From Verrucomicrobiales bacterium (GTDB lineage: Bacteria; Actinomycetota; Acidimicrobiia; Acidimicrobiales; SHLQ01), in the NCBI GenBank assembly GCA_047638715.1, contig JBLIMK010000006.1, positions 2,617-66,616 of the forward strand: a DNA stretch of 64,000 bases. Reading direction: 5' to 3'. The notes beneath the pieces were generated by a model, which saw only the letters and a program-made list of their open reading frames with translations, did not search any database and was not told the origin of the DNA. Position numbers and translations under genes: made by a program. Below, one piece after another: positions 24,614 through 59,987 of this stretch. Within the stretch, counting starts at the first letter, position 1; every line of letters starts with the position of its first letter.

Positions 24614-25955
24614 ATGTACGGCGGTACACCTCACATTCAGGAGTCGGCGACGCGGCGGATTTCTTGCGTTGCAAAACGCCTCGCCCTATTCGTTGCAGCC
24701 GCCCTTGTCGCGGTCGACCCAACCAATGACACCAGTGCGGTCACACCTACTCCGGTCTGGGCGATCGTCGAAGGCAACGGCCGCTACTACATAGGCGGCA
24801 CATTTCAGACCGTCGGTGGACAACCTCAAGTGGACATGGCGATTGGATCTTCATCGAGCCCAAGTTTCACGATCGACGGGTATGTGGAGGATGCAACAAA
24901 TATGAACGCGGTGCGACGAGAAAAGTTCTTCGCGGTAGACGCTGCCTCGGGAGCTCTGCTTCCCTGGGACCCAGACGGCGACTCGGTCAACGGGGTTTGG
25001 GAGCTCGAGACGGGCCGAGTGGCCTACCGCCGGCGGCGATTTCCACAACATCGCGAACCCCACAGGCGCGGCGGGTGGGGATCGGTCGATCTTCATTCCG
25101 CACGTGGCGATCTTCCCCGGAATAGGGTTCTAGAACGCGGCGCCCGAGTCCCTCTTCTCTGTCGACTGTGCGAGTACATCGTGCAACGTCGATGCGGCCG
25201 CATCGTTCGACGACGAGACGGTGCGAAACCTCAGAACATTCGTGTGGTACAAGGTCTTCTGCTCGGCAGATCCGGGAACAAATGCACTCTTCACACCTTC
25301 AGCAGGCGTGAACGCAGATCTCACCATCTCAACCTTCCATGGTGTGGATTCGGTGGCGCCGATCGACAACTTTGCTGTGGCGTTAGAGACGGTGCAACGT
25401 TTTGGGCATCCAGCTCCGGGCATGGCGATCGGTAGCAACGTGACGATCGTCCATCATTGGACCGACCGATCGTCTGCGACGACGGAGTACTTCGCCCCTC
25501 GAGATCAAATCACTCTTGCGACCTCGATCGGCGCTGGACCGGCACACATAAGCTCGGTAACAACGGTGCGGTCAGCTCCTGAATCGGGCTCGACGACAAA
25601 ATCCGTCGCAATTGCAGAACATGTCGGGCGCGCCGGGACCGGCTGGACAATCGCTTTGAAGCGATCGGCGCCGATGTGCGATGGCCTCGCTGCCACGGTC
25701 GATATCGCCGCTGGACAGGTTCCGACGGCGGGCGACGACGTCATCGACGGGGGCGACGACGCCGACACGATCAGCAGTGGCACAGGGGACGACCATCTGT
25801 TCGGCGGACCGGGTGATGACTTCGTTACTGGATCCACCGGGAACGACACGATCAATTCCACGAATGGTGTGGCCGACATCGTCAACGGTGGCCAGGGCAT
25901 CGATGCCTGCATCGTCGACCTAGGGATCGATACCGCGGTATTTAACTGCGCCTAA
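24614..25955 (+). pseudogene. Disrupted secreted propeller/RTX protein (sixth member of the Cys-capped RTX family)
   Basis: Signal-like N-terminus (RRISCVAKRLALFVAAALVAV). Reading shifts frame near 25028-25036 (…GRVAY | GGDFHNIANP…), then hits an in-frame TAG at 25131-25133. The same frame continues to an RTX tail ending GGQGIDACIVDLGIDTAVFNCA. Confidence 0.6.
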
Positions 25956-25993
25956 CAGAGCCACTGGGACCGTGTGCTCCAGAAGTGGCAAAG

Positions 25994-26851
25994 CTACGCG
26001 AGCGTCTCGGCGATACCTCGTGCGAGCGCCTCGGTAACGTCGATGTCTCCATCGACCGTGCTGCTCCCGGGAACGAGGTTTGCGACGGTGACCAGCAGTC
26101 CCCCTGCGATGATCTGCGCAGTCGACTCGTCGGTTACAAAACCCTTGACGCTGCCATTCTCGAACTGGCGAGCGCTCGGGTCATCGTCGAAACGACCGCT
26201 GATCGTATCGATATAGGTCGGGTCGGCGACATCCCAGCTCACGCCAACGAACCATACGTGGAGATCGCTGAACCACTCGCACGAGTTTGGGCTTCTGGAG
26301 ACCTCATTGAACTCGACCGACGTATCTGAGCCAAGCCCCGAAGGTAGCTGCGCGAACACTCCTGCATCCGCGGACCAACCGCTGATCAATCCACCGAGTT
26401 CGTTCGCTGAGTACAACTCACATGGACTGTCGAGATTGATCGCGGCAAGCTCCTCGTCGAAGTCTGGGGTGCCCGACCCAGGTTCGGGCTGATCACCCTC
26501 GGCGTCAGGGTCGACGTTGGCAGCCTCGACCAGCTGATCTGTAGCGGGTGGTGACCGCGTAACCGCCACAGTTGTTGATGTTGTCCCGATGGTGGTCGTG
26601 GTCGTGGTGTCGCCCTCTTGAACGTTGGACGGTTCGGTCAGCACATCGTCGGACTCGTTCGTCTGGGAGTCGCTCGGGTCAGCGCTCGAATTAGTTTGCC
26701 CGGCGTCATCGACTACCGACCTGGAGTTCGAACCGTCAGCCGCGACCTGTGCGTCGTCGGGTCCATTGTCGCTGCTGCAAGCCGAGGCGAGCAAAGCCCC
26801 TGCGAGCAAGATGGAGGGGGCCAGGTGGCGCCGCCGCTGTCGTTCGGTCAT
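25994..26851 (-). CDS. Hypothetical lipoprotein with T/D/S-rich linker
   Basis: MTERQRRRHLAPSILLAGALLASAC (lipobox), a low-complexity acidic/Thr linker, then a Cys-containing globular domain. Start set at ATG 26851 so that it does not overlap the next gene. Confidence 0.65.
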   Translation of the reverse strand: MTERQRRRHLAPSILLAGALLASACSSDNGPDDAQVAADGSNSRSVVDDAGQTNSSADPSDSQTNESDDVLTEPSNVQEGDTTTTTTIGTTSTTVAVTRSPPATDQLVEAANVDPDAEGDQPEPGSGTPDFDEELAAINLDSPCELYSANELGGLISGWSADAGVFAQLPSGLGSDTSVEFNEVSRSPNSCEWFSDLHVWFVGVSWDVADPTYIDTISGRFDDDPSARQFENGSVKGFVTDESTAQIIAGGLLVTVANLVPGSSTVDGDIDVTEALARGIAETLA

Positions 26852-26931
26852 CAGAATTCTCCGCGCTCGGTGTACACCAATTCTAGACGCTGCGTGCCGG
26901 CCGTTTCTATCGGTCGATCGGACCACATCGC

Positions 26932-27633
26932 CTAACGTGACGCGAGAAAGATGAAGTTGTTCACGTACTTTGCGGGCGAGGTCAACTTGGATGGATCTTG
27001 CATCTCCGAGCGGAACTCCGACAGGGGGTGCAGGCGACCGTCGAGCATGAAGTAGGCCGAGTACCCGATGTCGCATATTTCGCGAATCTTGCCGTCGATC
27101 TCGCCATCGTGATGGCGAAGTTCTATCTCGACAAGCAACGCAGGCCGGTCTCGTTCGAGCGTGGCTCTAGCTCCTCGCAGCACATCGAGTTCGTGGCCTT
27201 CAACGTCGATCTTGATGTAGCCAATGGGACCGACGTCGAGGTCATCGATACGCTCCAGATCGACCAAGACCGTCCGCTGATTATCAAAGTTATTCGACAG
27301 CGACGCCGCAGCTGCTCGTTCCCCGTCAGGTCCAATCGGTATTGCCAGCTCAGCCTGGCCAACAGCATCGGAGGCAGCGGCCGCTTTCACGACGACGTCG
27401 CCCCCGGGAAATGCACGATTTAATCGAGATGCGAGCGCCGCGTTTGGCTCGAAGGCAACCACACCCTTGGCGTATCGACGCATCCACCACGTGAACTGGC
27501 CGATGTTCGCACCAACGTCGATCGACATGCGCTCAGGATCCGAGAGCAGTTTGGTGAGCCGGATTTCCGGTGTCCCGTCGATCCAATATTTAATGGCGCG
27601 CAACGGCGTGTCCAACGTGGCCGGAAGCTTCAT
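26932..27633 (-). CDS. FkbM-family methyltransferase
   Basis: DVGANIGQFTWWM SAM-binding motif and IKIDVEGHELDVLRGA, characteristic of FkbM-type methyltransferases. Confidence 0.8.
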   Translation of the reverse strand: MKLPATLDTPLRAIKYWIDGTPEIRLTKLLSDPERMSIDVGANIGQFTWWMRRYAKGVVAFEPNAALASRLNRAFPGGDVVVKAAAASDAVGQAELAIPIGPDGERAAAASLSNNFDNQRTVLVDLERIDDLDVGPIGYIKIDVEGHELDVLRGARATLERDRPALLVEIELRHHDGEIDGKIREICDIGYSAYFMLDGRLHPLSEFRSEMQDPSKLTSPAKYVNNFIFLASR

Positions 27634-29120
27634 CGAACCGCTCTTTCGACCGACTGGCCAGCATCATCGGGTTGGCCTGAAACAGCGGCGAACGCCGGCC
27701 GCGTTCGAAGTCCGAGAAGCGCAAACAGCGCGCCCGTAATGACACCGGAGTTCGAGTTGATGATGACCGGGTCGACGAGGCTCATCACACCGAACGCGAG
27801 GAGAATCGGCACCGCTGCTTCCGCGACCGGATCATCGATTGGGCCGGGTCGTCGAGCGCGCCGGAGTGCGACGATAAACGGCACTACCGTTACCAGAGCG
27901 ACTGCCAGCAGCCCTAGGCCCCCGCCTTTCGTGCCATACCAGAGATACACGTTGTGCACCCATCGGCGGAAGAAGGTTGGGTCGCCAAAGGCTTCGATCT
28001 CTAATTCGGGTCGGTACGGGCGACCGAGTCCGGTTCCGAGCGGCTGGGAAACTATAACGTCGATTGCATAGGTATTCTCGCGTTGCCGCCACGACGACCC
28101 AGCGTCCTGCTGGAGTGACTCTGAGGTGAACCCATTAAGTACGCGCTCGGAAAATCCGTCAATCTGTTTTCCTACGACCGAGCTCGAGCCGATTCCTTGG
28201 CCAGCTATGGAGAGCAACGCCAAACCAACGATCGCGGCAAGGATGAACGGAAGCGCTACGGCGACCATATGGGCCGACTGCTTGAAACCTCCGCGTACGA
28301 GCATCCAAGCAATCAATCCGACCGCGAGCCCGACCAACAGCTGACGCGAGAGTGAAAGAACCATAATCGACACGCTCGAGGCTGCGACGAGCCAAAGCAG
28401 AATTCGAGAGGGCTGCAGGTATTTGTTCTTCGTCAGCCACCAGAAGACGACGAGCAACGAGGCAACGGCAAGATCCTCCGAGCTCACAATAAACCTGGTC
28501 GCATCGATCGCTGCCCCAGCGCGGCCGACACCGCCGAAGCCGACAGCATCGCTGACTCGTCCTCCCAGAATCTCAAGGCCCGTTGTTGCCTGAAAGCCGA
28601 TCAGAGCTACCGATACGCCAAGGGTGATCGGTACAAGGTTGAGCACCGAGCGCAGCCCCCCTTGTTGGTAGAGCGCCAAGGCGCACACCACGCCACCAAA
28701 GAACGACAGCGGACCTCGCACGTCCTGGAGCACGGCGGTAAGCGCTCCACCATTCGCCAACCCCCAGATGGCCATCCAGCCCACAATTCCCACATACCCG
28801 GCTAGCAGGCGACGAAAACCTCGAGTGAACGCCGACCAATCAACGACCGGAAGCACGGCAAATATCAAAAGGTGTGGAATGTACACAGACGTGCCCACCA
28901 GTGGGACCACGGGACGAGCTACCGAGAGCTCCGGGATCAACACGAGCAAAAAGAACGCTGATGAAACAACGATCCGTAGGTCGGTACGGCGATGAAGGAG
29001 CACAGCAAATGCGACACAGAGAATCGTGGCTCCGAGCGCGATCTTCGGCTCGAATACGAGGAGCGCGCCAATCGCGATGGCTACGAGCGTCAACGGGATC
29101 ATCGTTCGAATCCTGCTCAC
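27630..29120 (-). CDS. Wzy/O-antigen-ligase-like polytopic membrane protein (putative polymerase)
   Basis: At least 10 hydrophobic segments, a large loop, and HNVYLWYGTKGGGLG resembling the HxxxL...G..G motif of the Wzy_C family. 4-nt overlaps on both sides. Confidence 0.7.
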   Translation of the reverse strand: MSRIRTMIPLTLVAIAIGALLVFEPKIALGATILCVAFAVLLHRRTDLRIVVSSAFFLLVLIPELSVARPVVPLVGTSVYIPHLLIFAVLPVVDWSAFTRGFRRLLAGYVGIVGWMAIWGLANGGALTAVLQDVRGPLSFFGGVVCALALYQQGGLRSVLNLVPITLGVSVALIGFQATTGLEILGGRVSDAVGFGGVGRAGAAIDATRFIVSSEDLAVASLLVVFWWLTKNKYLQPSRILLWLVAASSVSIMVLSLSRQLLVGLAVGLIAWMLVRGGFKQSAHMVAVALPFILAAIVGLALLSIAGQGIGSSSVVGKQIDGFSERVLNGFTSESLQQDAGSSWRQRENTYAIDVIVSQPLGTGLGRPYRPELEIEAFGDPTFFRRWVHNVYLWYGTKGGGLGLLAVALVTVVPFIVALRRARRPGPIDDPVAEAAVPILLAFGVMSLVDPVIINSNSGVITGALFALLGLRTRPAFAAVSGQPDDAGQSVERAVR

Positions 29121-30415
29121 CGGGCAAACACCAACGCTCGGGCGTTCTTCGCATCAGCGCGACGTGGAATGAGTAGGTGGAGCCGCGCCTCGGGACGCGA
29201 GCCGCGATATTTAGACACGACAAGTGCTGCGCTCGTTGTATAGGCGAGCAAAGTCGCAACGCTGGCTCCGATCGCCCCGAACTGCCACCCGAGCAGCAGG
29301 ACCGCAGCTACCGCTACGGCCAATGTCACGATCTGCAGAGACGATTCGGTTCGCGCAAAATCCCCGGTCACAAGAAAGACGCCGAGCACGTCTCGAATGT
29401 AATTTGCCAAGCCGGCGAGCAGCAGTATCTCCGCTGGCCAGAGCGCATCGCCGAAGCTCGGCGGAAAGAGAAGCGACAACGCCAAAGGGATGGTCAAGGC
29501 CAGCAAAACAATCGAAGGAACGAGCAGGACAACACCCAGTCGAAAGTAGTGCTCAACATCGGGTCCATCTGGATCGTTAGACGAGCGAATAGCGAGCTGG
29601 CGGATCGTTCGGGTGAAGAGATCCGCGACCTCGGCGAGAGCAACAGCGACGGCGTAAAGGCCGAGTTCTCCGCTGCCGGCCACCGAGCCGAGGAGAAGCT
29701 GATCAAGGCGACGGTTTCCAAGTCGGGCGGCTTGGCCTGGAGCGAGATCCCACGCGAATCGACGGAAACGTCGTTCAACCGATCGCTCGATCGTCACCCC
29801 ACGAGAAAGCGGCACCGAGGCCGCGACCACCGCCGTGAACCCGACGATCGATCCTGCAACCGAAATCCACGCACCGGTCGCAACCGAGTCGATCGCGAAA
29901 GTCACCATGGCAATAGCGCCGACGAGTCGAACCACGTGCGGTGCAAGAATGTGAGCCACTACCGGGCGCGATCGTTGATCCGCCGTGAGAGCGAACCTCA
30001 AACCATCGGAGATCGCCGCCAGAGGGATGACGAGCAGTAGACCTCGGAAGATCGTGATTGCGTCGCTGTCGAGTCGAAACATCAACGGAGCAGCGATCCA
30101 AGCAACCGCGCTAAACGCCACGCTGCTCGGCCCAATCCAACGTGTCACCGCACGGGTGGTGCCACCAACTCCCATGTCGGTCCAGTGAACAGCGGCCAGC
30201 GCCGCCTCTTGCCCTCCGAGGGTCGACAGGTACCGAAATATGAGGAACGCCGACATCACGGCCGCCAGCGTGCCCCGACCATCTCGACCTAACGCTTCAG
30301 CGAGTAGAGGAGCGGCAGCGAAGGACAGCACGGGCCCCGCCACCGTTGCCATCAGCAACGAGCGCTCGAACTTCTGCGCCCTCACAGCGGGCCGCGTCGG
30401 TGACAAGGAACTCAC
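29117..30415 (-). CDS. Polysaccharide flippase (Wzx, MOP superfamily)
   Basis: About 12 TM segments across 432 aa, with operon position between the acetyltransferase and polymerase genes. Confidence 0.75.
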   Translation of the reverse strand: MSSLSPTRPAVRAQKFERSLLMATVAGPVLSFAAAPLLAEALGRDGRGTLAAVMSAFLIFRYLSTLGGQEAALAAVHWTDMGVGGTTRAVTRWIGPSSVAFSAVAWIAAPLMFRLDSDAITIFRGLLLVIPLAAISDGLRFALTADQRSRPVVAHILAPHVVRLVGAIAMVTFAIDSVATGAWISVAGSIVGFTAVVAASVPLSRGVTIERSVERRFRRFAWDLAPGQAARLGNRRLDQLLLGSVAGSGELGLYAVAVALAEVADLFTRTIRQLAIRSSNDPDGPDVEHYFRLGVVLLVPSIVLLALTIPLALSLLFPPSFGDALWPAEILLLAGLANYIRDVLGVFLVTGDFARTESSLQIVTLAVAVAAVLLLGWQFGAIGASVATLLAYTTSAALVVSKYRGSRPEARLHLLIPRRADAKNARALVFAR

Positions 30416-30987
30416 GTCTCGAGCGAGGCGCGCTCGCGGAAATGGACCCAGTTGTCAGCCGGGTCGAGCTCCTTCACGACTTTCGCAGGTACGCCCGCGA
30501 CGATCGAGTTGCTCGGCACGTCGGCGACAACAACCGCTCCCGCCGCCACGATCACGTTGTCGCCAATCGTCAATCTTCGGAGTCCACGCGCGTTGCTGAT
30601 GATCTTCGCTCCAGCGTTGATCTCGACATAGTCACCGATCGTCACGTTCGGACCGCCGATTCCAACTTGCTGCATCATCGAACAGTGCGACCCGATTCGG
30701 GTACTCGGGTTCACGACGAGACCTCGTGGATGTCCAGCGAAGACACCGGGGCCGACCTCGACCTTCGGTCCAATCCACACGCCGTGAAGAAAATCGTTGA
30801 GGGCGGTTATGCCATACGCGATCGGACGCGTCATGCGATGGCGGAAACAAGCCTGTGACAATCGGAAGAGCACGATCACTTTGAAGTCGGCGTGGTAGAA
30901 GTACTTCGCAATCCCGCGCTCGGAGTGCACGAGCTGGAACATTTCCAGATCGGCGCGGACGTCGTTTGTAAAGCGACTCATCACCAC
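30412..30987 (-). CDS. Serine-acetyltransferase-like hexapeptide-repeat O-acetyltransferase
   Basis: CysE-like N-terminal helical region (ADFKVIVLFRLSQACF) plus left-handed beta-helix repeats (IGPKVEVGPGVFAGHPRGLVVNPSTRIGSHC...IGDYVEINAGAKI). Confidence 0.8.
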   Translation of the reverse strand: MVMSRFTNDVRADLEMFQLVHSERGIAKYFYHADFKVIVLFRLSQACFRHRMTRPIAYGITALNDFLHGVWIGPKVEVGPGVFAGHPRGLVVNPSTRIGSHCSMMQQVGIGGPNVTIGDYVEINAGAKIISNARGLRRLTIGDNVIVAAGAVVVADVPSNSIVAGVPAKVVKELDPADNWVHFRERASLET

Positions 30988-31931
30988 TCCCCATAGAACT
31001 GGTGAAGGTCTGGGCCGATCAGCGCCATGAGCCTGGCCTCGTCGTCGGCGTCGATGGAGGTGCGCCAGTGTTCTGCGACCGCGTGGGAATCTCGCACGAA
31101 CGAGTGAACCTTTAGACGCTCTGGCGCGATCACAGAACCCGATGATGTGTACTCGATATAGTCAGCCATTTCTTGGGTCATACTCAACCCAAAATGCGAA
31201 GAGACCTCATCGATCGTTGCATGGATGTCCGCGGCAAGATCTTCGAAGCGAACCACCATCACAGAGTCAGTCGATGTTCGAGCCACCATCTGCGACATCA
31301 TTCGCCAAAGAACGGCACAGTAGGCAAGTTTGTCCGTCTCGGCAGTGCGCCACGTTTCGTCCTCGATGTCGATTCCGAAATCTCGACGCATAGCCGAGGC
31401 ATTGATGAATCGACCAATCCCGAAGTCCCACGGTTGCATAACGAAGCTCTGGTAATAGGCCGCTGGGTGACGCACGATGCAGATGGATCGAACACCATGG
31501 CGCCGAGCGAGATGTTCGAGCGCGAACGTGGCAAAGGGATCCTTGAAACATTGGACAGGAGCGCGGGGTCGCCCGACGCGCTCGAAGAGCGCGTCGCTTC
31601 GCCAGTCGCGGCTTGTGCGACTACCCACGAGCACCTTTCCGGTTTTCTGTGCCCATGTACGGTTTTGGCCGCGAGACATGGCGAATCGGCGCCAGCCACC
31701 TCGTAGCTCCACCATCTGCGATAGGACCTTCGCCGACTCGATGCTCGCGGGATCGCCGCCCGAAACGTAGGGGAACTGCCCCGATACGGCTCGAAGACCA
31801 AATTCTTCGTTCAGAGGCTCGAGGACCATTCGTACGTCAGGGTGGTGCGCGAGGATATTTCCGACGTAGGTGGTTCCGCTGCGTGGAAGACCCGCGACAA
31901 CGATCCGATCGGTTCGTAGCGCCGAGTCCAT
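30981..31931 (-). CDS. Sulfotransferase family protein (1)
   Basis: 5'-PSB loop VVAGLPRSGTTYVGN and 3'-PB-like CIVRHPAAYYQS. Start set at MDSALRT (31931), which leaves 8 nt to the upstream stop. Confidence 0.75.
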   Translation of the reverse strand: MDSALRTDRIVVAGLPRSGTTYVGNILAHHPDVRMVLEPLNEEFGLRAVSGQFPYVSGGDPASIESAKVLSQMVELRGGWRRFAMSRGQNRTWAQKTGKVLVGSRTSRDWRSDALFERVGRPRAPVQCFKDPFATFALEHLARRHGVRSICIVRHPAAYYQSFVMQPWDFGIGRFINASAMRRDFGIDIEDETWRTAETDKLAYCAVLWRMMSQMVARTSTDSVMVVRFEDLAADIHATIDEVSSHFGLSMTQEMADYIEYTSSGSVIAPERLKVHSFVRDSHAVAEHWRTSIDADDEARLMALIGPDLHQFYGEW

Positions 31932-31939
31932 CTCCGTTC

Positions 31940-34119: not shown

Positions 34120-34209
34120 TTGTACGACTTCGACTCGGCACTTCGAAATAGGTAGCGATGCCTAGAGATCGTTCCGCTGTTGGCCGAGAAGTTGAACCCT
34201 CCGCCCATA

Positions 34210-43988: not shown

Positions 43989-46034
43989 CTAGCCCTCACA
44001 GGCAATACGGGCTACGACCGACGTACACCTATCGCTTCCAGGTCCGCCCCAGGCAAAGTTGGTGCCCGCGCCGCCGCGCAAGTTGTCGTCACCCTGCCCG
44101 CCGTACAGTTCATCGTTTCCGCCATAGCCGAACAAGCGGTCGCGACGGTCGCCTCCGTAGAGCGTGTCGTTTCCGCCATTCCCGACGAGGCGATCTCCCC
44201 CACGGCCACCACGAAGAAGGTCGTTGCCTCCGCCTCCCTCGACATCGTCGAGACCAGGGCCAGCGAGTACGAGGTCGTCCCCGTCACCGGCGCGCACAAC
44301 ATCGGAACCCCAGCCGGCATTGATGATGTCGGCCCCGGACCCACCATTGATTCGATCTGCGCCGCCACGCCCACAGATGATGTCGTTGCCGCCCAATCCG
44401 TCGATGATGTCCGGACCGCCCGTGCCGACGATGACATCGTCACCGTTCGTACCGATGAGGCCGGTCGTCGTTGCGAGCCGACCCTGGCAGGATTCGGTCG
44501 GCGGCAGTGAGTTCGTTACGAGATAGATGAAGCCGTTGCGTTTGCTCGAAATGTAGAGCTCGCCGTCCGGCCCCTGCCCAAACCGTGCATCGGCTCGCCC
44601 CGACCCGTCGTAGGTCGCTGCATCGTTGAACACATCCTGCAGACTCGTGCGAGGCAACGCAGCGGTAGTGGGATCACCATCGTGGTCGAAGGTGATCGCG
44701 ACTCGACCGGTAGGCGCCTGTGTGAGGTCTCCGGGAGCATCGCGAGCCGGATCGTCTGGATCGAGCAGTGTCACCGCGGCGGCCATCTCCTCGAGCGTCG
44801 AGTGAAAGAGCTTTCCCGTCTTCGGGAAGTCGCTGTAGAAGTACTGCCCGGACAACGCCGAACCATTGTCTACGACGTACCCGCCAGCGATTGCTTGCCC
44901 CGAGAGCCCCGAACCTCGCGTTCCCTCGTGACCGTACTGTGCTGCCGGGTACGTGTAGCCGTTCGCGGCCTCGTCGGCCGGGAGCGGTGCAATCCCGTTG
45001 AGCAGGTCGCCGGTCGGGAGGTGAACAAAGGTTCCTTCACGCTCCGACCAGCCGTAGTTGGCCCCGCCCACGATGACGTTTACTTCTTCGACGTTGTCCC
45101 GTCCCGCCTCCGCAGCGATCAGATGGACCGCACCGCCGTCATCTCGAGCGAACGCCAGGTGATGTGGATTCCGATGGCCGAGCGACCACACCTCATCCAG
45201 CATCACCGGGTCACCGATGAACGGGTTGTCCTCGGGCACCAGATAGGGATCGAGGCCCGACCGCCGCGGATCGATGCGCAGGATCTTGCCGAGCGCGTCG
45301 TTCTTCTGACCACCGCCAGCCGTTGCTGACTGCACGCTTCCATCGCCGTGAGCAACGTACAGGTTCCCGAAGTCATCATCGCCTGGCTCGGCAAATGGAT
45401 TGAAGGCGATCTGCTTGATCGGATGGTCGTATACCGGCATGCCAACGCGAAAAACCTGGCGATAACTCGAAGGATCGATTTGGCCCGTGTTCAGATCCAT
45501 CGTCCACTCGATGAGCACACCGTCGGCGACGATCGGGTTGGCTGCATCGCTCAGATAGTCATCGGGATCCGGGGACGTGGGTCGCCGTTCCATCACCGAT
45601 GTGTACAGCAGGCCGTTCGCCGCGAACCGCGGATGAAACGCGACCGATCGAAGGCCCCCATGGAAGATGCTCGTGTTGTCCAGACGACGTCCGGTTGCAG
45701 CCAACATCGCGATCTTCACATCGAAGAAAACCGATGCGGTTGCGGTGCGCCCAGATTTCGATATCTCGTAGATCTTGCCGTCATAGTCCTCGACGACGAA
45801 GAACCGATCACCAGATGTAGCGAACTGGTTGAGGCGAGGACGACCGAGCGCCGAATTCGGGATCTGTACGTACGGAGATAACTCGACGACGACCCCTCGA
45901 TCGACGATCGGTAGTAAGACCGGGTTGTCCGCCGACGCATGCGTCACCGTCGCGCCGACGAGCGCTACTGACAGACACGCAGCCCCCGCAGCGGAGGCCC
46001 ATCGTTTCGTACGAGGTCTCTTGCTGAGGTCCAT
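43989..46034 (-). CDS. Secreted PQQ-dependent sugar (glucose/sorbosone) dehydrogenase beta-propeller fused to RTX repeats
   Basis: Signal peptide (…LVGATVTHASA). SGDH motifs HGGLRSVAFHP, LGKILRIDP, SLGHRNPHHLAF and GANYGWSEREG. RTX tail entered via CQGRLATTTG…GDDVIVGT…GNDIICG and ending GSDRCTSVVARIACEG. Confidence 0.88.
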   Translation of the reverse strand: MDLSKRPRTKRWASAAGAACLSVALVGATVTHASADNPVLLPIVDRGVVVELSPYVQIPNSALGRPRLNQFATSGDRFFVVEDYDGKIYEISKSGRTATASVFFDVKIAMLAATGRRLDNTSIFHGGLRSVAFHPRFAANGLLYTSVMERRPTSPDPDDYLSDAANPIVADGVLIEWTMDLNTGQIDPSSYRQVFRVGMPVYDHPIKQIAFNPFAEPGDDDFGNLYVAHGDGSVQSATAGGGQKNDALGKILRIDPRRSGLDPYLVPEDNPFIGDPVMLDEVWSLGHRNPHHLAFARDDGGAVHLIAAEAGRDNVEEVNVIVGGANYGWSEREGTFVHLPTGDLLNGIAPLPADEAANGYTYPAAQYGHEGTRGSGLSGQAIAGGYVVDNGSALSGQYFYSDFPKTGKLFHSTLEEMAAAVTLLDPDDPARDAPGDLTQAPTGRVAITFDHDGDPTTAALPRTSLQDVFNDAATYDGSGRADARFGQGPDGELYISSKRNGFIYLVTNSLPPTESCQGRLATTTGLIGTNGDDVIVGTGGPDIIDGLGGNDIICGRGGADRINGGSGADIINAGWGSDVVRAGDGDDLVLAGPGLDDVEGGGGNDLLRGGRGGDRLVGNGGNDTLYGGDRRDRLFGYGGNDELYGGQGDDNLRGGAGTNFAWGGPGSDRCTSVVARIACEG

Positions 46035-46053
46035 CCACTACGACCGTAGCGTG

Positions 46054-48126
46054 TCAAAAACGTCGCTCGCAGCTCACTTTTTGCCCGCCAGCACAGAAAT
46101 CCTTCATCGGCCCGCCATCGAGGCGGTCGATGCCGAGTCCACCACGAATGTGATCGACACCATTGCCGCCGCCGATCTGATCTCGGCCGCTATTCCCGAA
46201 CAACCAATCCCAACCCTCGCCGCCGGTGATGACATCGTTTCCGGCGCCACCGCGGATCCGGTCGGCATCTGGGCCGCCACGAATCTCATCGTTTCCGGCG
46301 CCTGCATAGATCTGGTCGCGACCAGCGCCACCGAGGATGATGTCGTTTCCTTGGAGTCCACAGATGAGGTCGTCGCCAGCGAGGGCGTCGATGAAGTTTG
46401 CCGTCGACGTGCCAATGATGACGTCGTCACCGTTGGTCGGCAGCTGCCCTTTCGCGAAGTCGACCGTCACGGGGATACCAGCGCACGTGCGAGAACCAGG
46501 GCTTGTGTTCGGCGCTGCTGCGAGTGCTGCGAGCAGGCCAGCCTTCGTCTGCTCCTTACACGCCGCGCTTCCCTTCACAATCTGAACACGGCGATCGATG
46601 CCAGGAACAGTGCACGTTGAATACGAACCATCGGGCCACCGGATCTCGACCGGCGCAACTTCTGTGCTTGGACCCAGGCCAACGTGCAACGTACGGCCAT
46701 CTTGAGATCGGTGATATCGGTGTCCGGTCTCGCGGACTTGCCAATCGCTGGCACCGACGAAGAGCTGTGCGCCCATGGCGTCAGGGTTCGAGCCGACGAG
46801 GTCGATCTCGAGCCAGTGATTTCCAGAGCCCTTCTTATTCGTCAAGACGTGATCGACCGCTCGATCGAAGTCGTAGCCGTTGCCGATGATCGCATCCATC
46901 CAGCCATCGGCATTGATGTCGGCAACCACGATGGCGCCAGCGGTTTGCGCTGGCGCTGTTGCTGTTGTAGCCGGCAACACTCCGGTGCCGCCGTCGGAGA
47001 AGTTGCCTTCGCCGTCGTTCAGCAGCAAGACATTTCGGAGCTGACCCTCTTGTCTCTGGGTGCAGCCAGCGAGAATGTCGAGGTCGCCATCGTTGTCGAA
47101 GTCGGCCGCCGCACCTGAGCGGCAATTGTCGAGATCCGCGCTCATGGGAAGCGATACGGTGCGCCCGTTCCCCGCCGCGGTTACTTCATGTGCCGTGACA
47201 GGCCAGTTCCCGGCACTGTTGGACTCGCTTCCATTGAAGACGATGAACTCGGGGTGAAGGTCGCCGTCGAAGTCACCGACGAGCACCTCGCGAATGGGCA
47301 AGGTTTCGTCTCTGCGCTGAATAGCTGGATTCGAGGGTTCGGCCATGGAACCGCCACCGACCGCCATCGAGTCCTTTGCGAGGGTGAACACGTCGTGCGT
47401 CACGATGATGTTGGAAGTGGCTGGCCCGGTCGAGGTCAGCTGGGCGATTCGGACGTGGGCATCGGTAATGATCTGTCCGGGGTCGGGAACCTTGGACCAT
47501 GTGGTTCCGTCGCCGTTGTTGAGGTAGACCTCACTCGGCTTGAGCTGTCGTTCACCTTGTGGCACGGGGTCCGAACGCAGGTCGAGGTTCGTGATGAGCA
47601 CGTCCATGTCGCCATCGTTGTCGTAATCGAAGAACAGCGGCTGCCGGCCGCGGCCGAAGATGTCCTTGAGTGCGCCGGCGTCGACGAACTGAAGCGTGCC
47701 ACCGTCGTTGCGAAACAAACGATTGTTGTTGTTGCGACCCGAGACCTCCAAGAGGTCTTCATCGCCGTCGCCGTCGATGTCGGAGAATGCAACGCCATGG
47801 GTGTCGGGGCCCTGGTCTTCTGGATCGCCAGATTGAAACGCAGTTCTCGTGCTGGTCCCCGAGGAGAGGTCGATGATGGCTTCGGACATGCTGCCGTGGT
47901 TGTTGTTCCACACGTCGACACCCGGACCGCCGAGATCCTCGGTAATGCCCAGACCCCAGGCCGGCGAATCGTTGAACCCGATACCGGACGGAAGGTCGCT
48001 CACCGCGAAACCCTGCCAACCCGCGGCGTCGGCCGAGTCTCCGCTGGTGACGGGGACGGCAATAGCTGCGGCAAACACCGCGATAACCACCCATACCCGA
48101 CCGGCTTTGGTCGTCCTAGTCAACAT
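46054..48126 (-). CDS. Secreted CRTAC1-like protein A (FG-GAP/VCBS repeats + ASPIC/UnbV domain + short RTX tail)
   Basis: Signal peptide. Repeated DxDxDGDxD FG-GAP calcium sites (DIDGDGDEDL, DYDNDGDMDV, DFDNDGDLDI). UnbV_ASPIC-like NHWLEIDLVGSNPDAMGAQLFV…RETGHRYHRSQDGRTLHVGLG. RTX tail ending DGGPMKDFCAGGQKVSCERRF. Confidence 0.85.
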   Translation of the reverse strand: MLTRTTKAGRVWVVIAVFAAAIAVPVTSGDSADAAGWQGFAVSDLPSGIGFNDSPAWGLGITEDLGGPGVDVWNNNHGSMSEAIIDLSSGTSTRTAFQSGDPEDQGPDTHGVAFSDIDGDGDEDLLEVSGRNNNNRLFRNDGGTLQFVDAGALKDIFGRGRQPLFFDYDNDGDMDVLITNLDLRSDPVPQGERQLKPSEVYLNNGDGTTWSKVPDPGQIITDAHVRIAQLTSTGPATSNIIVTHDVFTLAKDSMAVGGGSMAEPSNPAIQRRDETLPIREVLVGDFDGDLHPEFIVFNGSESNSAGNWPVTAHEVTAAGNGRTVSLPMSADLDNCRSGAAADFDNDGDLDILAGCTQRQEGQLRNVLLLNDGEGNFSDGGTGVLPATTATAPAQTAGAIVVADINADGWMDAIIGNGYDFDRAVDHVLTNKKGSGNHWLEIDLVGSNPDAMGAQLFVGASDWQVRETGHRYHRSQDGRTLHVGLGPSTEVAPVEIRWPDGSYSTCTVPGIDRRVQIVKGSAACKEQTKAGLLAALAAAPNTSPGSRTCAGIPVTVDFAKGQLPTNGDDVIIGTSTANFIDALAGDDLICGLQGNDIILGGAGRDQIYAGAGNDEIRGGPDADRIRGGAGNDVITGGEGWDWLFGNSGRDQIGGGNGVDHIRGGLGIDRLDGGPMKDFCAGGQKVSCERRF

Positions 48127-48198: not shown

Positions 48199-48206
48199 GT
48201 AGAACG
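48199..48206. promoter_or_regulatory. GTAGAACG box (copy 2 of 3)
   Basis: Located 73 nt upstream of start codon 48126, downstream of the terminator hairpin. Confidence 0.35.
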
Positions 48207-48260
48207 AAACATCACATTTTGTCACTGCCAAATGGCCCAAGTCACCCAAGAAAACAGCAA

Positions 48261-48289
48261 AGCGCCGGCCACAAGACGTGACCGGCGCT
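48261..48289 (-). terminator. Intrinsic terminator of CRTAC1-like gene B
   Basis: 12-bp stem with 1 mismatch, AGCGCCGGCCAC-AAGAC-GTGACCGGCGCT. Followed on the minus strand by TTGCTGTTTTCTT. A second small hairpin CGCCCC-CGCC-GGGGCG lies at 48304-48319. Confidence 0.65.
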
Positions 48290-48335
48290 GCTCACTCACT
48301 TCACGCCCCCGCCGGGGCGAACTACACAAAGTTGG

Positions 48336-50699
48336 TTAGAGGCCAAAGACCCCGGTTTCGCAGTTCACACGAGTCTCGATCACTCCACCCGGATCGGTCA
48401 ACGTGCAACCGTCGAACTGGGGCCCACCGTCCATTGTGTCGATCCAGGCACCGCCGCGAAGAACGTCGTCGCCCTCCTCGCCGAACAACTGATCACGACC
48501 CAAGTTGCCAAACAGTTCATCGGCAAACTTCCCGCCACGCAGGACGTCATTGCCGTTACCACCAGCAATTCGATCCTTGCCATTGCCGCCGCTCATGGTG
48601 TCGACACCATCGCCACCCTGGATACGGTCGTTGCCGTTATCACCGTTGATGGTGTCGTTGCCTGAGCCACCCACGAGTCGGTCATTTCCAGTTCCACCGT
48701 TGATGATGTCATTACCGAGGCCCGCAAAGATCTTGTCGAACCCGTCACCACCATTGATGGTGTCGTCACCCTGCAACGAACAGATCGTGTCGTTGCCAGC
48801 AAGGCCGTTGATGACATCGTTGCCCGAAGTGCCACGAATGATGTCGTCGCCCGCGGTAGGCGCCTCACCCTTGGACAGATCGACCGTGACCTCGAGATTG
48901 TTGCAAATCAGTGGTGGAACGAGTGGCGAGGTGTCAGGTATTCCGTCCACCGCAGCCATCAGCCCAGACTTGGTCTGGGAAACACAATCGTTGCTTCCCT
49001 GGGTGACCGTGATCGTCTGGTTGATGCCCGCCACAGCGCAACGCTCGAATGTGCCGTCTGGCCACATGATCTCAAGCGGAGCGATAGCGGTCTGGTCGGC
49101 GAGGCCGAAGTGCAGCGACTTCATGTCCTGTCCACGATGCACCCGGTGACCAGTCTCTCGGACCTGCCACTTGTCGGTACCAGCGAACACCTGAGCGCCC
49201 ATGACGTCAGGGTTCGAACCAACGAGGTCGACCTTGAGCCAGTTGTTGACGCCACCGTCGTTCAAGAAGATGAAATCTTCGCCGGCTTGGCTGTCATAAC
49301 CGCCACCCACGTAGGTGTCGATCCAACCGTCGTCATTGAAGTCGGCGGTAATCGCAACGGTGGCGGTCCCGAGTGCTGCAGTGGCAGGCACGAGTGACGC
49401 AGTACCGATGGTGAAGTTGCCCGCTCCGTCGTTGAGCAAGATGACGTTCTGGGTCTGGCCGCTCTCTACCATCGTGCAGCCGCCGAAGATGTCGATGTCG
49501 GCGTCGTTGTCGTAGTCGGCGAGCGCCACGGTGCGGCAGTTGTCGACACGATCATCATTGGGAAGGATGTCGACTACGGCTTCCGAGACCAACGAACTTG
49601 TCGAGACCTGACCAATACCGAGGGGAAGTTCACCCTCGAGATCGGGGACACCATCACCAATGGGGTCGCCAGGTTGCGGTTCTCCCTCAGCGGGTGGATC
49701 CTCTCCCTCTCCGGGCTCCGGCACAGTTGCGCCGACATCGTCGGTCGCTAGGAAGTCGTCCTGACGGGCCACAATCCATTCCGGCATGAGGTCGCCGTCG
49801 AGGTCGCCGAGTGCGATGTCACGCATGTTGCTTGCGTTGTCGTCAACACCCAACGTCTGATTCACGGGGTTCGCCGAAGCGATCAGCGTTGCTGAACCGG
49901 TCTGCACCGTGTCGATCGCGAAAGAGAAAGAGTTTGACGTAACGATGACCGGGGTTTCACCAGGACCGGTGGTGGTGAGGTGCGCGTAACGCACACTTTC
50001 GTCGGTGATGACCGTGGTCGGGTCAGCGACCTTCGTCCATGACGTTCCATCGCCGTCATTGAGGAAGAGCTCGGAAGGACGAAGGATCGTAGGATCGTTT
50101 TCATCCATGCCGTCAGGGGTCAAGAACTGGCGATCGAGGTTGACGATGAGCGCGTCCATGTCGCCGTCGTCGTCGATATCGACCATCAAGACCGTGCGAC
50201 CCCGGCCGAGGTTGTCCTCGAGCCCGTGGCCTGTGATGGCTCCGAGGTCTCCGATATTTGCGGGATCGTTGATAAAGACGCGGGTGTCGTGCGCGCGACC
50301 GGACGTCTCGACGAGGTCGTCGTCGCCATCGCCGTCGATGTCGGAGAATGCAGCGCCATGGCTGTCGAAGCCACCAGCAGCCTGGATGGCATCAGCGAAC
50401 ACGCCGGCCGTTGGTTCCCAGTCGACCAGCCATTCCGACTTCTCGGCGTGGTTGCTGACAAAAAGATCGGTGCCGGGGCCGCCGAGATCGTTTGTCGTGG
50501 CTGCGGTGAACGCAGGGCTGTTGTTCGTCCCGTCTGGGTTTGCCGAGGCGAGACCAGATGGGACCGAGGTTGCCGAGAACCCGTTCCATATTCCGACCGC
50601 ACCGGCCTGTGTCGTAGATATGGGTGCAGCGACAGTCGCTGCCACCAGAGCCATACCCAAAAAAGCATGTTTCAACTTGCGTCGCATAAATAACCCCAA
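48336..50699 (-). CDS. Secreted CRTAC1-like protein B (FG-GAP/VCBS + ASPIC/UnbV + RTX tail)
   Basis: Paralogue of 46054..48126, with the same architecture (DIDGDGDDDL, DIDDDGDMDA, DYDNDADIDI; NNWLKVDLVGSNPDVMGAQVFA…RETGHRVHRGQDMKSLHFGLA). Has an extra Pro/Glu-rich insert. The tail ends DGGPQFDGCTLTDPGGVIETRVNCETGVFGL. Confidence 0.85.
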   Translation of the reverse strand: MGLFMRRKLKHAFLGMALVAATVAAPISTTQAGAVGIWNGFSATSVPSGLASANPDGTNNSPAFTAATTNDLGGPGTDLFVSNHAEKSEWLVDWEPTAGVFADAIQAAGGFDSHGAAFSDIDGDGDDDLVETSGRAHDTRVFINDPANIGDLGAITGHGLEDNLGRGRTVLMVDIDDDGDMDALIVNLDRQFLTPDGMDENDPTILRPSELFLNDGDGTSWTKVADPTTVITDESVRYAHLTTTGPGETPVIVTSNSFSFAIDTVQTGSATLIASANPVNQTLGVDDNASNMRDIALGDLDGDLMPEWIVARQDDFLATDDVGATVPEPGEGEDPPAEGEPQPGDPIGDGVPDLEGELPLGIGQVSTSSLVSEAVVDILPNDDRVDNCRTVALADYDNDADIDIFGGCTMVESGQTQNVILLNDGAGNFTIGTASLVPATAALGTATVAITADFNDDGWIDTYVGGGYDSQAGEDFIFLNDGGVNNWLKVDLVGSNPDVMGAQVFAGTDKWQVRETGHRVHRGQDMKSLHFGLADQTAIAPLEIMWPDGTFERCAVAGINQTITVTQGSNDCVSQTKSGLMAAVDGIPDTSPLVPPLICNNLEVTVDLSKGEAPTAGDDIIRGTSGNDVINGLAGNDTICSLQGDDTINGGDGFDKIFAGLGNDIINGGTGNDRLVGGSGNDTINGDNGNDRIQGGDGVDTMSGGNGKDRIAGGNGNDVLRGGKFADELFGNLGRDQLFGEEGDDVLRGGAWIDTMDGGPQFDGCTLTDPGGVIETRVNCETGVFGL

Positions 50700-59985: not shown

Positions 59986-59987
59986 CC

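What the first reader, a model, noticed from the sequence alone, without database searches (positions are those of the whole stretch)
25677..50699. A portable Cys-bracketed RTX module shared by six otherwise unrelated proteins
All six tails open with the same entry motif, C-x-G-x(2-3)-(A/V)T(V)-x(5-8)-(T/S)-x-GDDVI-x-GT-x(3)-(D/N)-x-I-x(2)-L-x-G(N/D)D-x-IC(G/S). Examples are RCNGLLVTF…GGDDVILGT…GGNDTICG, TCNGQAATV…SGDDVIIGT…DGNDIVCG, CQGRLATT…NGDDVIVGT…GGNDIICG, CAGIPVTV…NGDDVIIGT…AGDDLICG, ICNNLEVTV…AGDDIIRGT…AGNDTICS and MCDGLAATV…AGDDVIDGG. All six close with GG-P/x-x-x-D-x-C…(N/S/A)-C-(E/A) within 0-8 residues of the C-terminus (…NDTCITDAGVDTVFNCELP, …NDTCLVDAVVDTVFNCELP, …SDRCTSVVARIACEG, …KDFCAGGQKVSCERRF, …FDGCTLTDPGGVIETRVNCETGVFGL, …IDACIVDLGIDTAVFNCA). 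The number of nonapeptide turns between entry and exit varies from about 8 to about 30. This looks like a defined, shufflable domain with two probable disulfides capping a beta-roll. It may act as a common anchoring or sorting tag, by analogy with PEP-CTERM proteins that co-occur with EPS loci.
Basis: seen in the sequence. Interest (0 to 1): 0.65.

Follow-up and report, generated by a model that had tools for sequence, protein, structure and literature searches.

The report
Disulfide-capped RTX beta-roll domain
Six secreted proteins in this polysaccharide-synthesis locus end in the same self-contained calcium-binding "beta-roll" domain, whose two ends each carry a conserved cysteine pair; it is a Sec-exported, cysteine-capped variant of the RTX repeat domain, not a sorting tag.

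Summary
Five complete ORFs (B–F) and one probably decayed ORF (A) end in an RTX tail with four conserved Cys: C1 and C2 38–45 residues apart at the entry, C3 and C4 8–15 apart at the exit, which lies 1–7 residues from the C-terminus. A has lost C2. AlphaFold models of two tail subtypes give one continuous beta-roll (pLDDT 93 and 95). All four Cys are kept in 79/79 CRTAC-like homologues. In 48/49 unrelated proteins found with an entry-only profile, an exit pair closes the RTX run. Ordinary RTX proteins retrieved by the same profile are almost Cys-free. The module is fused to many kinds of secreted enzyme. It can also sit at the N-terminus, and it occurs outside EPS loci. B–F have Sec-type signal peptides, and the window holds no T1SS, sortase or exosortase. 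No TM or basic tail follows the last Cys. It is best read as a portable, Sec-exported beta-roll domain with Cys-containing end caps, apparently not curated in Pfam, NCBIfam or PDB. The PEP-CTERM-like sorting idea is not supported. Disulfide geometry could not be measured, because model coordinates were not returned. Calcium-mediated retention in the probably sulfated EPS remains a speculative role.

The parts
25677..25952 (+). Tail of ORF A (ORF 25221-25955): truncated module of 92 aa with C1, C3 and C4 only (Cys codons 25677, 25908, 25947). C2 is replaced by Phe. Exit of the VFNC type. Probably a decayed gene.
35906..36862 (-). Tail of ORF B (ORF 35903-40873, 1656 aa, animal haem peroxidase): 319-aa capped module. 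Cys codons at 36860, 36725, 35951 and 35915. Exit ...NDTCITDAGVDTVFNCELP.
37574..38101 (-). Internal RTX block of ORF B (aa ~925-1100) with no Cys. It serves as an in-protein contrast: not every RTX run in this organism is Cys-bracketed.
43033..43977 (+). Tail of ORF C (ORF 41182-43980, 932 aa, reprolysin/Mep72-like metalloprotease): 315-aa capped module, 70% aa and 78% nt identical to the B tail. Cys codons at 43033, 43156, 43930 and 43966. AF2 gives one beta-roll of ~32 strands, pLDDT 94.9.
43992..44489 (-). Tail of ORF D (ORF 43989-46034, 681 aa, glucose/sorbosone-dehydrogenase-like): 166-aa capped module with the short 'ATT..GT' entry (C1-C2 = 38). Cys codons at 44487, 44373, 44025 and 43998.
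46057..46485 (-). Tail of ORF E (ORF 46054-48126, 690 aa, CRTAC-like FG-GAP + UnbV_ASPIC): 143-aa capped module. Cys codons at 46483, 46360, 46093 and 46069. AF2 pLDDT 93.1, with 13 strands at 9-residue spacing.
48339..48905 (-). Tail of ORF F (ORF 48336-50699, 787 aa, CRTAC-like paralogue of E): 189-aa capped module with exit ...DGCTLTDPGGVIETRVNCETGVFGL. Cys codons at 48903, 48780, 48405 and 48360.
22142..35256 (-). Left part of the surrounding EPS locus: priming sugar transferase, FkbM methyltransferase, Wzy, Wzx, hexapeptide acyltransferase, two sulfotransferases (30981-32941) and GT4 transferases. Context only, not part of the module.
50952..63827 (+). Right part of the EPS locus: Wzx, Wzz-like proteins, Sortilin/BNR glycosidase-like lipoprotein, GT1, Wzy, GT2 and an acyltransferase. 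Context only. The block Wzx / Wzz-like / BNR / GT next to the CRTAC pair is syntenic in two other MAGs.

Best explanation
The six tails are copies of a self-contained extracellular domain. It is an RTX-type, Ca2+-binding parallel beta-roll whose two open ends are closed by conserved cap motifs, each holding one Cys pair.

Anatomy (shown):
- The N-cap is C-x-G-x3-(A/V)T(V)-x3-8-(P)T-x-GDDVI-x-GT ... G(N/D)D-x-I-C-G. C1 lies in a short strand-turn-strand-helix element ahead of the first nonapeptide. C2 is position 9 of the third nonapeptide.
- At the exit, C3 takes the core-facing position 8 of the last nonapeptide (GGxxxDxC). C4 follows 8-15 residues later in a closing loop, and the domain ends there.

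Proposed mechanism (inferred):
1. The proteins are exported unfolded through Sec; B-F have N-terminal signal peptides.
2. The roll folds outside the cell on binding Ca2+.
3. The C1-C2 and C3-C4 disulfides staple the first and last turns.
4. The caps thereby replace the bulky Cys-free C-terminal cap and secretion signal that T1SS-type RTX domains need for folding.
5. Because the chain emerges N-terminus first, the elaborate N-cap may act as the folding nucleus. This would mirror the C-to-N folding of T1SS substrates.

The domain moves as a unit between genes. It comes in subtypes of discrete length and is appended to many secreted enzymes and matrix proteins, mostly at the C-terminus and sometimes at the N-terminus. 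The producers appear to be mainly Actinomycetota.

In this locus it decorates a peroxidase, a metalloprotease, a PQQ-type dehydrogenase and two CRTAC-like propeller proteins, all encoded inside a probably sulfated EPS pathway. Its likeliest role is a rigid, Ca2+-loaded stabilising and spacer domain. A speculative extra role (about 0.3) is Ca2+-bridged retention in the anionic polysaccharide, as RTX R-modules of AlgE epimerases bind alginate.
For: Fold:
- AF2 of the E tail gives pLDDT 93.1 and pTM 0.88. AF2 of the C tail gives pLDDT 94.9 and pTM 0.89.
- Strands recur every 9 residues, and both models show the same N-cap DSSP pattern, EE--EE--EEHHH.
- Foldseek hits only RTX beta-rolls: CyaA block V, family I.3 lipase, AlgE R-modules, serralysins.
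- Pfam finds only HemolysinCabind on the tails.

Cys conservation:
- 79/79 RTX-tailed CRTAC homologues keep all four Cys. C2-C3 length differences are mostly multiples of 18 residues, i.e. whole turns.

Entry-exit linkage:
- The profile contained only the entry (A3). Even so, 48/49 full-entry hits have a Cys pair 8-15 apart exactly where the RTX run ends; the remaining one is truncated.

Not generic:
- The other 101 RTX hits have 0.9 Cys per 1000 aa against 12.6 in the capped set.
- Of the 120 best matches to tail C, 83 have at most one Cys, and 57 of those have T1SS-like C-termini. 22 carry the entry cap, of which 19 (21 after hand inspection) also have an exit pair.

Pairing:
- C2-C3 ranges from 89 to 332 residues along a rigid rod, so only C1-C2 and C3-C4 can be local partners.
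- P0449 keeps an N-cap pair and lacks both exit Cys.
- 43/49 capped proteins have an even Cys count, p = 6e-8.
- Exported proteins of aerobic Actinobacteria show an even-Cys bias indicative of disulfide formation (PMC2823432).

Sec export, not T1SS:
- Signal-peptide-like N-termini in B-F and in 33/49 representatives by a crude test.
- No HlyB, HlyD or TolC in the window.
- Actinobacterial genomes with RTX genes lack T1SS components (PMC3034196).

Portability:
- B and C tails are 78% nt identical while their N-terminal parts are unrelated.
- Fusion partners include GDSL lipase, M23, M12, S8, trypsin, PPC, polysaccharide deacetylase, Kelch and Spondin_N.
- Five modules are N-terminal.
- A Pro-rich linker precedes C1 in the CRTAC family.

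Caps matter for beta-rolls and solenoids:
- PMC6891781 describes the need for N- and C-caps, and states that classical RTX proteins have no or one Cys.
- PMC13288671 shows that disulfide caps stabilise beta-solenoids.
Against: - The Sγ-Sγ distances were never measured, because the tools return no coordinates. The disulfides are inferred, not shown.
- From periodicity alone, C1 and C2 would not be neighbours. The pairing depends on the non-periodic N-cap fold predicted by AF2.
- ORF A keeps C1 without C2, though it looks like a pseudogene.
- Taxonomy rests on few named hits: Acidimicrobiales, Acidimicrobiia, Actinomycetota, Nocardioides and one 'Verrucomicrobiales' MAG fragment. It also rests on actinobacterial-looking neighbourhoods. 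Restriction to monoderms is therefore not established.
- Signal peptides were judged by eye and a crude hydrophobicity rule, not by a trained predictor.
- Nothing tested here bears directly on Ca2+ binding, N-to-C folding or EPS binding.
Confidence: 0.7

Rival explanations
1. Ordinary T1SS-type RTX exoproteins. On this reading the tails are the usual repeat block plus a C-terminal secretion signal, and the Cys are incidental.
For: PF00353 matches throughout the tails. There are weak NCBIfam hits to RTX toxins and serralysins. Foldseek and PDB matches are all T1SS substrates.
Against: B-F have N-terminal signal peptides. Only 1-7 residues follow C4, so there is no room for a T1SS signal. No ABC, MFP or OMF genes are in the 64 kb. 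The NCBIfam scores are far below the curated cut-offs. Classical RTX proteins have 0-1 Cys (PMC6891781). The module can be N-terminal.
Confidence: 0.03
2. A C-terminal sorting or anchoring signal recognised by dedicated machinery, like PEP-CTERM/exosortase or LPXTG/sortase.
For: The tails are C-terminal in all six window proteins, which cluster in an EPS locus. The endings are conserved (NCELP, CE...). The CRTAC/GSDH/EPS synteny is conserved in two other MAGs.
Against: No TM helix or basic tail follows the motif. No exosortase or sortase is found. Exit sequences differ between subtypes apart from the two Cys. In 5/49 proteins the whole module is N-terminal, with 251-408 residues after C4. Module genes also occur in housekeeping neighbourhoods.
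Confidence: 0.05
3. The module is chiefly a Ca2+-dependent polysaccharide or cell-surface binding domain that holds the enzymes in the (sulfated) EPS matrix. On this reading the Cys caps are secondary.
For: Six module-bearing genes lie inside a Wzx/Wzy locus with two sulfotransferases. A relative's locus carries a Pel9A-like beta-helix enzyme with the same module. AlgE R-modules, which are RTX beta-rolls, bind alginate and tune processivity (PMC4444821). Foldseek matches AlgE6 R-modules.
Against: The same module is fused to lipases and proteases and lies in non-EPS contexts. No binding surface or conserved outward-facing basic or aromatic stripe was examined. No experiment bears on this.
Confidence: 0.25
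4. The conserved Cys are not intradomain disulfides. They would instead form intermolecular bonds (oligomers or a covalent matrix), bind metal, or be redox-active, for example in concert with the peroxidase B.
For: The disulfide geometry is unmeasured. ORF A has an odd number of tail Cys. A haem peroxidase is among the carriers.
Against: The even Cys count bias. P0449 keeps an entry pair and lacks both exit Cys. C3 sits at a buried core position.
Confidence: 0.07

Closest known systems
RTX / haemolysin-type Ca2+-binding beta-roll of T1SS substrates (Pfam PF00353; serralysin C-domain, CyaA block V)
   Same: The GGxGxDxUx nonapeptides and the predicted parallel beta-roll. Both also need end caps for folding (PMC6891781).
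   Different: Here the proteins have Sec signal peptides and no T1SS. Four conserved Cys contrast with Cys-free classical domains. The domain ends 1-7 residues after the last Cys instead of carrying a C-cap plus secretion signal. The N-cap is elaborate and conserved. The domain may be N-terminal.
AlgE-type mannuronan C5-epimerase R-modules
   Same: An RTX beta-roll module appended to extracellular enzymes that act on the producer's own anionic polysaccharide, and shuffled as a module (PMC4444821; Foldseek hits 2ml1, 2ml3).
   Different: R-modules are T1SS-secreted, Cys-free and carry a non-repeat C-terminal half. Polymer binding by the present module is untested.
PEP-CTERM / exosortase sorting signals
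   Same: A C-terminal position in several proteins encoded near EPS genes.
   Different: No PEP motif, TM helix, basic tail or exosortase. The element is a 90-320-aa folded domain, not a ~25-aa signal, and it also occurs N-terminally.
Cys-capped extracellular solenoids (LRRNT/LRRCT caps of LRR ectodomains, from my own knowledge; disulfide-capped fungal ice-nucleation beta-solenoids, PMC13288671)
   Same: The logic is the same: a repeat solenoid of variable length, with open ends shielded by short conserved cap motifs that each contain a disulfide.
   Different: The fold and sequences are unrelated. Here the repeats are Ca2+-binding nonapeptides and the hosts are bacteria.
Vertebrate CRTAC1 (FG-GAP/ASPIC propeller + C-terminal Cys-rich Ca2+-binding EGF-like domain; from my own knowledge)
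   Same: E and F share the FG-GAP + UnbV_ASPIC body (one homologue is named 'CRTAC homolog'). They also carry a C-terminal, Cys-containing, Ca2+-binding domain.
   Different: The C-terminal domain is an RTX beta-roll rather than an EGF-like domain.

Membership tests
RTX / HemolysinCabind beta-roll (PF00353) | Tandem GGxGxDxUx nonapeptides | tested here: met
   PF00353 E = 6e-09 to 9e-61 on all six proteins. The tails print in clean 9-residue register.
RTX / HemolysinCabind beta-roll (PF00353) | Parallel beta-roll fold | tested here: met
   By prediction only. AF2 pLDDT 93.1 and 94.9 with strands every 9 residues. Foldseek top hits are RTX domains.
T1SS-secreted RTX exoproteins | No N-terminal signal peptide; uncleaved C-terminal secretion signal after the repeats | tested here: not met
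   B-F start with n/h/c-type signal peptides. Only 1-7 residues follow the last Cys.
T1SS-secreted RTX exoproteins | Cognate ABC transporter / MFP (/TolC) genes | tested here: not met
   None among the ORFs of the 64-kb window; the only ABC ATPases are SufC-like. The rest of the genome was not available.
T1SS-secreted RTX exoproteins | Cysteine-poor (none or one Cys) | tested here: not met
   Four conserved Cys per module, against 0.9 Cys per 1000 aa in generic RTX hits. PMC6891781 states the rule.
PEP-CTERM/exosortase or LPXTG/sortase sorting signals | Short motif + TM helix + basic residues at the extreme C-terminus | tested here: not met
   The C-termini read ...NCELP...ACEG...SCERRF...NCETGVFGL and ...FNCA, with no hydrophobic segment.
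PEP-CTERM/exosortase or LPXTG/sortase sorting signals | Dedicated transpeptidase (exosortase/sortase) encoded with the substrates | tested here: not met
   No such Pfam or NCBIfam hit in the window. Genome-wide absence could not be tested.
PEP-CTERM/exosortase or LPXTG/sortase sorting signals | Strictly C-terminal location | tested here: not met
   5 of 49 representative proteins carry the complete module right after the signal peptide, with 251-408 residues downstream.
AlgE-type R-modules | RTX module that binds the anionic polysaccharide substrate | not testable with these tools
   Only fold resemblance and the EPS-locus context. Binding needs experiment.
Disulfide-capped solenoid domain (proposed class) | Conserved Cys pair in each terminal cap, co-occurring across unrelated carriers | tested here: met
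   79/79 CRTAC homologues. 48/49 entry-profile hits. 19 of 22 in an independent search, 21 after hand inspection.
Disulfide-capped solenoid domain (proposed class) | Cys pairs within disulfide-bonding distance | not testable with these tools
   Structure prediction returns no coordinates. The support is indirect: a rod of variable length excludes cross-end pairing, P0449 keeps an entry pair without either exit Cys, and there is an even-Cys bias.

The most novel reading that the evidence does not exclude
These tails define a previously uncurated, widespread class of RTX domain: the Sec-exported, disulfide-capped beta-roll. On this reading it would explain how Actinobacteria possess RTX proteins without any type I secretion system, a puzzle noted in 2010 (PMC3034196). 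The domain would fold N-to-C from a disulfide-stapled N-cap, the mirror image of the C-cap-nucleated, C-to-N folding of T1SS substrates. It would serve as a portable Ca2+-dependent rod that tethers exoenzymes and matrix proteins to anionic, here probably sulfated, exopolysaccharide.
Probability: 0.4. Interest if true: 0.6.

Novelty: new variant of a known kind. Interest (0 to 1): 0.45.

Why it matters
RTX repeats are treated in textbooks as the hallmark of type I secretion substrates, which are Cys-free and fold from a C-terminal cap. A second, Sec-dependent and Cys-capped class would have four consequences.

- It would give a structural and secretory rationale for the many 'calcium-binding protein' annotations in Actinomycetota and in metagenomes.
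- It would justify separate N-cap and C-cap models in Pfam/NCBIfam, so that such proteins are not mis-called 'type I secretion' substrates.
- It would offer protein engineers a compact capped beta-roll (143 aa in ORF E), whose length varies in whole turns.
- In this locus it flags a set of secreted enzymes (peroxidase, metalloprotease, PQQ dehydrogenase, CRTAC-like propellers) as likely partners of a sulfated EPS matrix.

It does not overturn any principle. It is a domain-level refinement.

Tried and rejected
1. The word-indexed homologue search with the 63-column entry profile returned only proteins under 120 aa. The tool appears length-limited, so the result was useful only as anecdote.
3. 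The look-up of the window's own protein E found no record. The cluster look-ups gave almost no taxon names.
4. In the all-library HMM search, whole-protein scores were dominated by giant RTX adhesins that matched the generic half of the profile many times. I re-scored the 150 returned proteins per domain to isolate the 49-51 full-entry matches.
5. PDB sequence and fold searches found no solved structure covering either cap.
6. I looked for model coordinates to measure Cys-Cys distances, and none are exposed. Reasoning from DSSP and periodicity alone could not settle the N-cap geometry.
7. I considered and rejected three readings: T1SS substrates, PEP-CTERM-like signals, and a motif generic to RTX repeats. 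See the rival explanations.
8. Pfam and NCBIfam gave nothing for the frame-2 ORF upstream of A. The pseudogene reading of A therefore rests on frame statistics only.

Full report
**1. What is in the sequence**

ORF listing and six-frame motif scans confirm six ORFs with RTX tails.
- A, 25221-25955(+), 244 aa.
- B, 35903-40873(-), 1656 aa.
- C, 41182-43980(+), 932 aa.
- D, 43989-46034(-), 681 aa.
- E, 46054-48126(-), 690 aa.
- F, 48336-50699(-), 787 aa.

Pfam assigns the N-terminal bodies as follows.
- B is an animal haem peroxidase.
- C is a reprolysin-like M12 metalloprotease. NCBIfam adds a weak Mep72-like hit.
- D is a glucose/sorbosone dehydrogenase.
- E and F combine FG-GAP with UnbV_ASPIC. 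One homologue is named 'CRTAC homolog [Acidimicrobiales bacterium]'.
- A has no assignable body.

Only PF00353 covers the tails. No NCBIfam model reaches its cut-off.

**2. The Cys bracket**

Each tail of B-F has exactly four Cys.
- C1-C2 spacing is 45, 41, 38, 41 and 41 residues.
- C3-C4 spacing is 12, 12, 9, 8 and 15 residues.
- C4 lies 2-7 residues from the end.

Written in nonapeptide register, the entry reads: cap (C-x-G-x3-TV-x-loop), then unit 1 (PTxGDDVIx), unit 2 (GTxxxxxIx) and unit 3 (xLxGNDxIC). C2 is therefore position 9 of unit 3. C3 is position 8, the inward-facing 'U', of the last unit (GGPxxDxC). C4 follows in a short closing segment.

A has C1, C3 and C4 but Phe at the C2 position. 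It also has no signal peptide. Frame-0 GC3 stays at 0.76-0.80 across an in-frame stop at 25131, and an upstream frame-2 ORF starts with a signal-peptide-like segment. A is probably a decayed copy.

B also contains an internal RTX block (aa ~925-1100) with no Cys at all. The bracket is thus a property of the terminal module, not of every RTX run in this organism.

**3. How independent the six copies are**

The N-terminal bodies of A, B, C and D, and of the E/F pair, show no detectable similarity to one another. E and F are paralogues, 41% identical over 593 aa.

The B and C tails are 70% identical in protein over their whole length and 78% identical in DNA over 844 nt. That is direct evidence that the module was copied between two unrelated, divergently transcribed genes.

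**4. Fold**

AF2 was run on the E tail with a 20-sequence alignment. It gives pLDDT 93.1 and pTM 0.88, with 13 strands at exact 9-residue spacing.

AF2 on the C tail gives pLDDT 94.9 and pTM 0.89, a single roll of ~32 strands.

The two subtypes share the same N-cap secondary-structure pattern, EE--EE--EEHHH. The exit caps are confident (pLDDT 84-92).

Foldseek against the PDB returns only RTX beta-rolls. A profile search of PDB sequences matches only the generic repeats. Profile positions 1-16 are never covered, so C1 and its strand are unmatched, and in the alignments shown non-Cys residues align at the C2 and C3 positions.

Coordinates are not exposed, so the Cys-Cys distances could not be measured.

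**5. Are the Cys conserved in wider homologues?**

Homologues of ORF E were selected through the CRTAC-like body, which is an unbiased test for the tail.
- All 79 that carry an RTX tail (39-73% identity) keep four Cys.
- C1-C2 spacing is 41 residues in 68 of them, 38 in 6 and 43 in 5.
- C3-C4 spacing is 8-16, and C4 lies 1-11 residues from the end.
- C2-C3 ranges from 89 to 257 residues and equals 17 mod 18 in 58/79. Length therefore changes by whole beta-roll turns.
- A Pro-rich linker precedes C1.

**6. Are entry and exit linked, and is the pattern generic?**

A profile of the entry alone (A3, 47 positions) was run against 1.84 billion representative proteins.
- It gave 22,797 hits at E<=1e-3.
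- The best-scoring hits are giant RTX proteins that match only the generic half of the profile many times over.

I re-scored the best 150 per domain.
- 49 proteins match the full entry cap.
- 48 of them have a Cys pair 8-15 apart exactly where the RTX run ends, with 10-31 RTX motifs before it and 0-2 after. The remaining protein is truncated after C3.
- The exit was not in the profile, so the linkage is real.

Exit subtypes have discrete lengths.
- ...D.C..D...D.VFNC(E)(LP), the type of A, B and C: C2-C3 = 257-258.
- ...GD.CNGQSG.D.A..SCE...G.P: C2-C3 = 230.
- ...NDGCTLTDP.G..E.R..CE.GVFGR, the type of F: C2-C3 = 125-126.
- ...D.C.GG....CE, the type of E: C2-C3 = 89.

The control set was the other 101 proteins, median length 2708 aa.
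- They hold 0.9 Cys per 1000 residues, against 12.6 in the capped set.
- 60 of them have at most one Cys.
- Cys fills nonapeptide position 9 in 0.2% of units.

An independent search with the whole C tail gave a similar split.
- 83 of the 120 best hits have at most one Cys. Of these, 57 have typical T1SS-like C-termini, and the named ones are Alphaproteobacteria and Cyanobacteria.
- 22 have the entry cap. 19 of these also have an exit pair by script, or 21 after inspection.
- A few carry a short N-cap variant with C1-C2 = 21 residues.
- P0449 has that N-cap pair and no exit Cys at all, which fits two separate pairs, C1-C2 and C3-C4.

The rod length between C2 and C3 varies from 89 to 332 residues, which excludes cross-end pairing.

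43 of the 49 capped proteins have an even Cys count (p = 6e-8). Sec-exported proteins of aerobic Actinobacteria show the even-Cys bias typical of disulfide formation (PMC2823432).

**7. Portability and position**

The 50 capped representatives scanned carry many different partner domains:
- GDSL lipase, M23, M12 and S8 peptidases, and trypsin;
- PPC, polysaccharide deacetylase, FG-GAP, Kelch, Spondin_N, G8, DUF11 and others.

In 43 proteins the module is C-terminal. In 5 it follows the signal peptide directly and is itself followed by 251-408 residues of other domains.

**8. Secretion route and gene context**

B-F begin with n/h/c-type signal peptides, for example ...LATGASA|QT and ...THASA|DN. 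33 of the 49 representatives pass a crude signal-peptide test, and many of the rest are probably fragments.

The window holds no T1SS, sortase or exosortase genes. The RTX genes are embedded in a Wzx/Wzy-type EPS locus with two sulfotransferases, flanked by suf genes.

Two MAG contigs, from GCA_020629375.1 and GCA_020629635.1, show a syntenic block:
- GT, BNR protein, Wzz-like protein and Wzx;
- then an F-like and an E-like CRTAC gene;
- in the first MAG also a GSDH+RTX gene and a Pel9A-like beta-helix+RTX gene.

All four RTX proteins in the first MAG carry the four-Cys bracket.

Capped-module genes elsewhere sit in housekeeping neighbourhoods that look actinobacterial: PAC2, EgtB/EgtD-like, FhaA/FhaB-PP2C and LytR. 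These have no EPS genes. The EPS association therefore belongs to this gene cluster, not to the module.

Named carriers are few: Acidimicrobiales, Acidimicrobiia, Actinomycetota, Nocardioides and one 'Verrucomicrobiales' MAG fragment. The taxonomic range is only indicative.

**9. Comparison with what is known**

Reviews state that RTX proteins are T1SS substrates with no or one Cys, and that they need N- and C-caps for Ca2+-induced folding (PMC6891781).

Linhartova et al. recorded, as a surprise, RTX genes in six Actinobacteria genomes that lack T1SS components (PMC3034196).

Disulfide caps stabilise other beta-solenoids (PMC13288671). RTX R-modules of AlgE epimerases bind alginate (PMC4444821).

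I found no curated family, solved structure or paper describing a Cys-capped, Sec-exported RTX domain. The search was limited to the libraries available here.

**10. Verdict**

The sorting-tag analogy fails its defining tests.

The best mechanistic reading has these steps:
- Sec export of the unfolded protein;
- Ca2+-driven folding outside the cell;
- disulfide-stapled caps that replace the T1SS-type C-cap.

Possible N-to-C nucleation and Ca2+-mediated matrix retention are inferences.

I class it as a new variant of a known kind, of moderate interest.

Noticed in passing
window 24530-25955 (+): ORF A looks like a decayed gene. Coding-like GC3 (0.76-0.80) in its frame continues upstream across an in-frame stop at 25131-25133. 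A frame-2 ORF from 24530 starts with a signal-peptide-like 'KRLALFVAAALVAV' followed by 'GGTFQTVGG'-type repeats. The tail has lost C2. No Pfam or NCBIfam hit for the upstream part.
   Followed up: partly
window 30981-32941 (-) and the whole 22142-63827 locus: Two sulfotransferase genes sit inside a Wzx/Wzy EPS locus of a probable Acidimicrobiia-type actinobacterium, which implies a sulfated exopolysaccharide. A sulfotransferase also lies next to the CRTAC pair in L083.
   Followed up: partly
window 46054-50699 (-); L081 7666-12151; L083 7506-12199: A tandem pair of CRTAC-like (FG-GAP + UnbV_ASPIC) genes is conserved next to Wzx/BNR/GT genes in three genomes. Vertebrate CRTAC1 is a protein of the sulfated-GAG cartilage matrix, so a matrix-protein role next to a sulfated EPS is an intriguing parallel.
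   Followed up: no
window 35906-36862 (-) vs 43033-43977 (+): The B and C tails form an inverted duplicate about 6 kb apart, with 78% nt identity over 844 nt. The rest of the two genes is unrelated, which points to a module duplication or gene-conversion event.
   Followed up: yes
window 37574-38101 (-): The peroxidase B has a second, internal RTX block without any Cys, upstream of the capped terminal module.
   Followed up: partly
P0496, P0510, P0449, P0472: A shorter N-cap variant exists, C-x-(V/I)-x-GT...GDD-x-IC-G, with C1-C2 = 21 residues. P0449 has it without any exit Cys pair.
   Followed up: partly
L086 8672-10324: In an Actinomycetota MAG, a glyoxal-oxidase gene and a 107-aa mini capped module (P0003) appear to be one gene split by frameshifts.
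   Followed up: partly
window 25994-27076 (-) and 53014-55545 (+): Both ORFs have lipobox-like N-termini (…LLASAC SSD; …LIATAC GTS). The second is a BNR/Sortilin-type, F510_1955-like glycosidase candidate conserved in the syntenic loci. The start of 53014 is probably mis-set, because the first ~90 aa are Cys/Arg-rich.
   Followed up: no
L081 14279-16315 (-): In the syntenic locus of GCA_020629375.1, the slot held by the metalloprotease C in the window is occupied by a Pel9A-like beta-helix (pectate-lyase/epimerase-like) protein. It carries the capped module with an 'ATIVGT' entry (C1-C2 = 44).
   Followed up: partly
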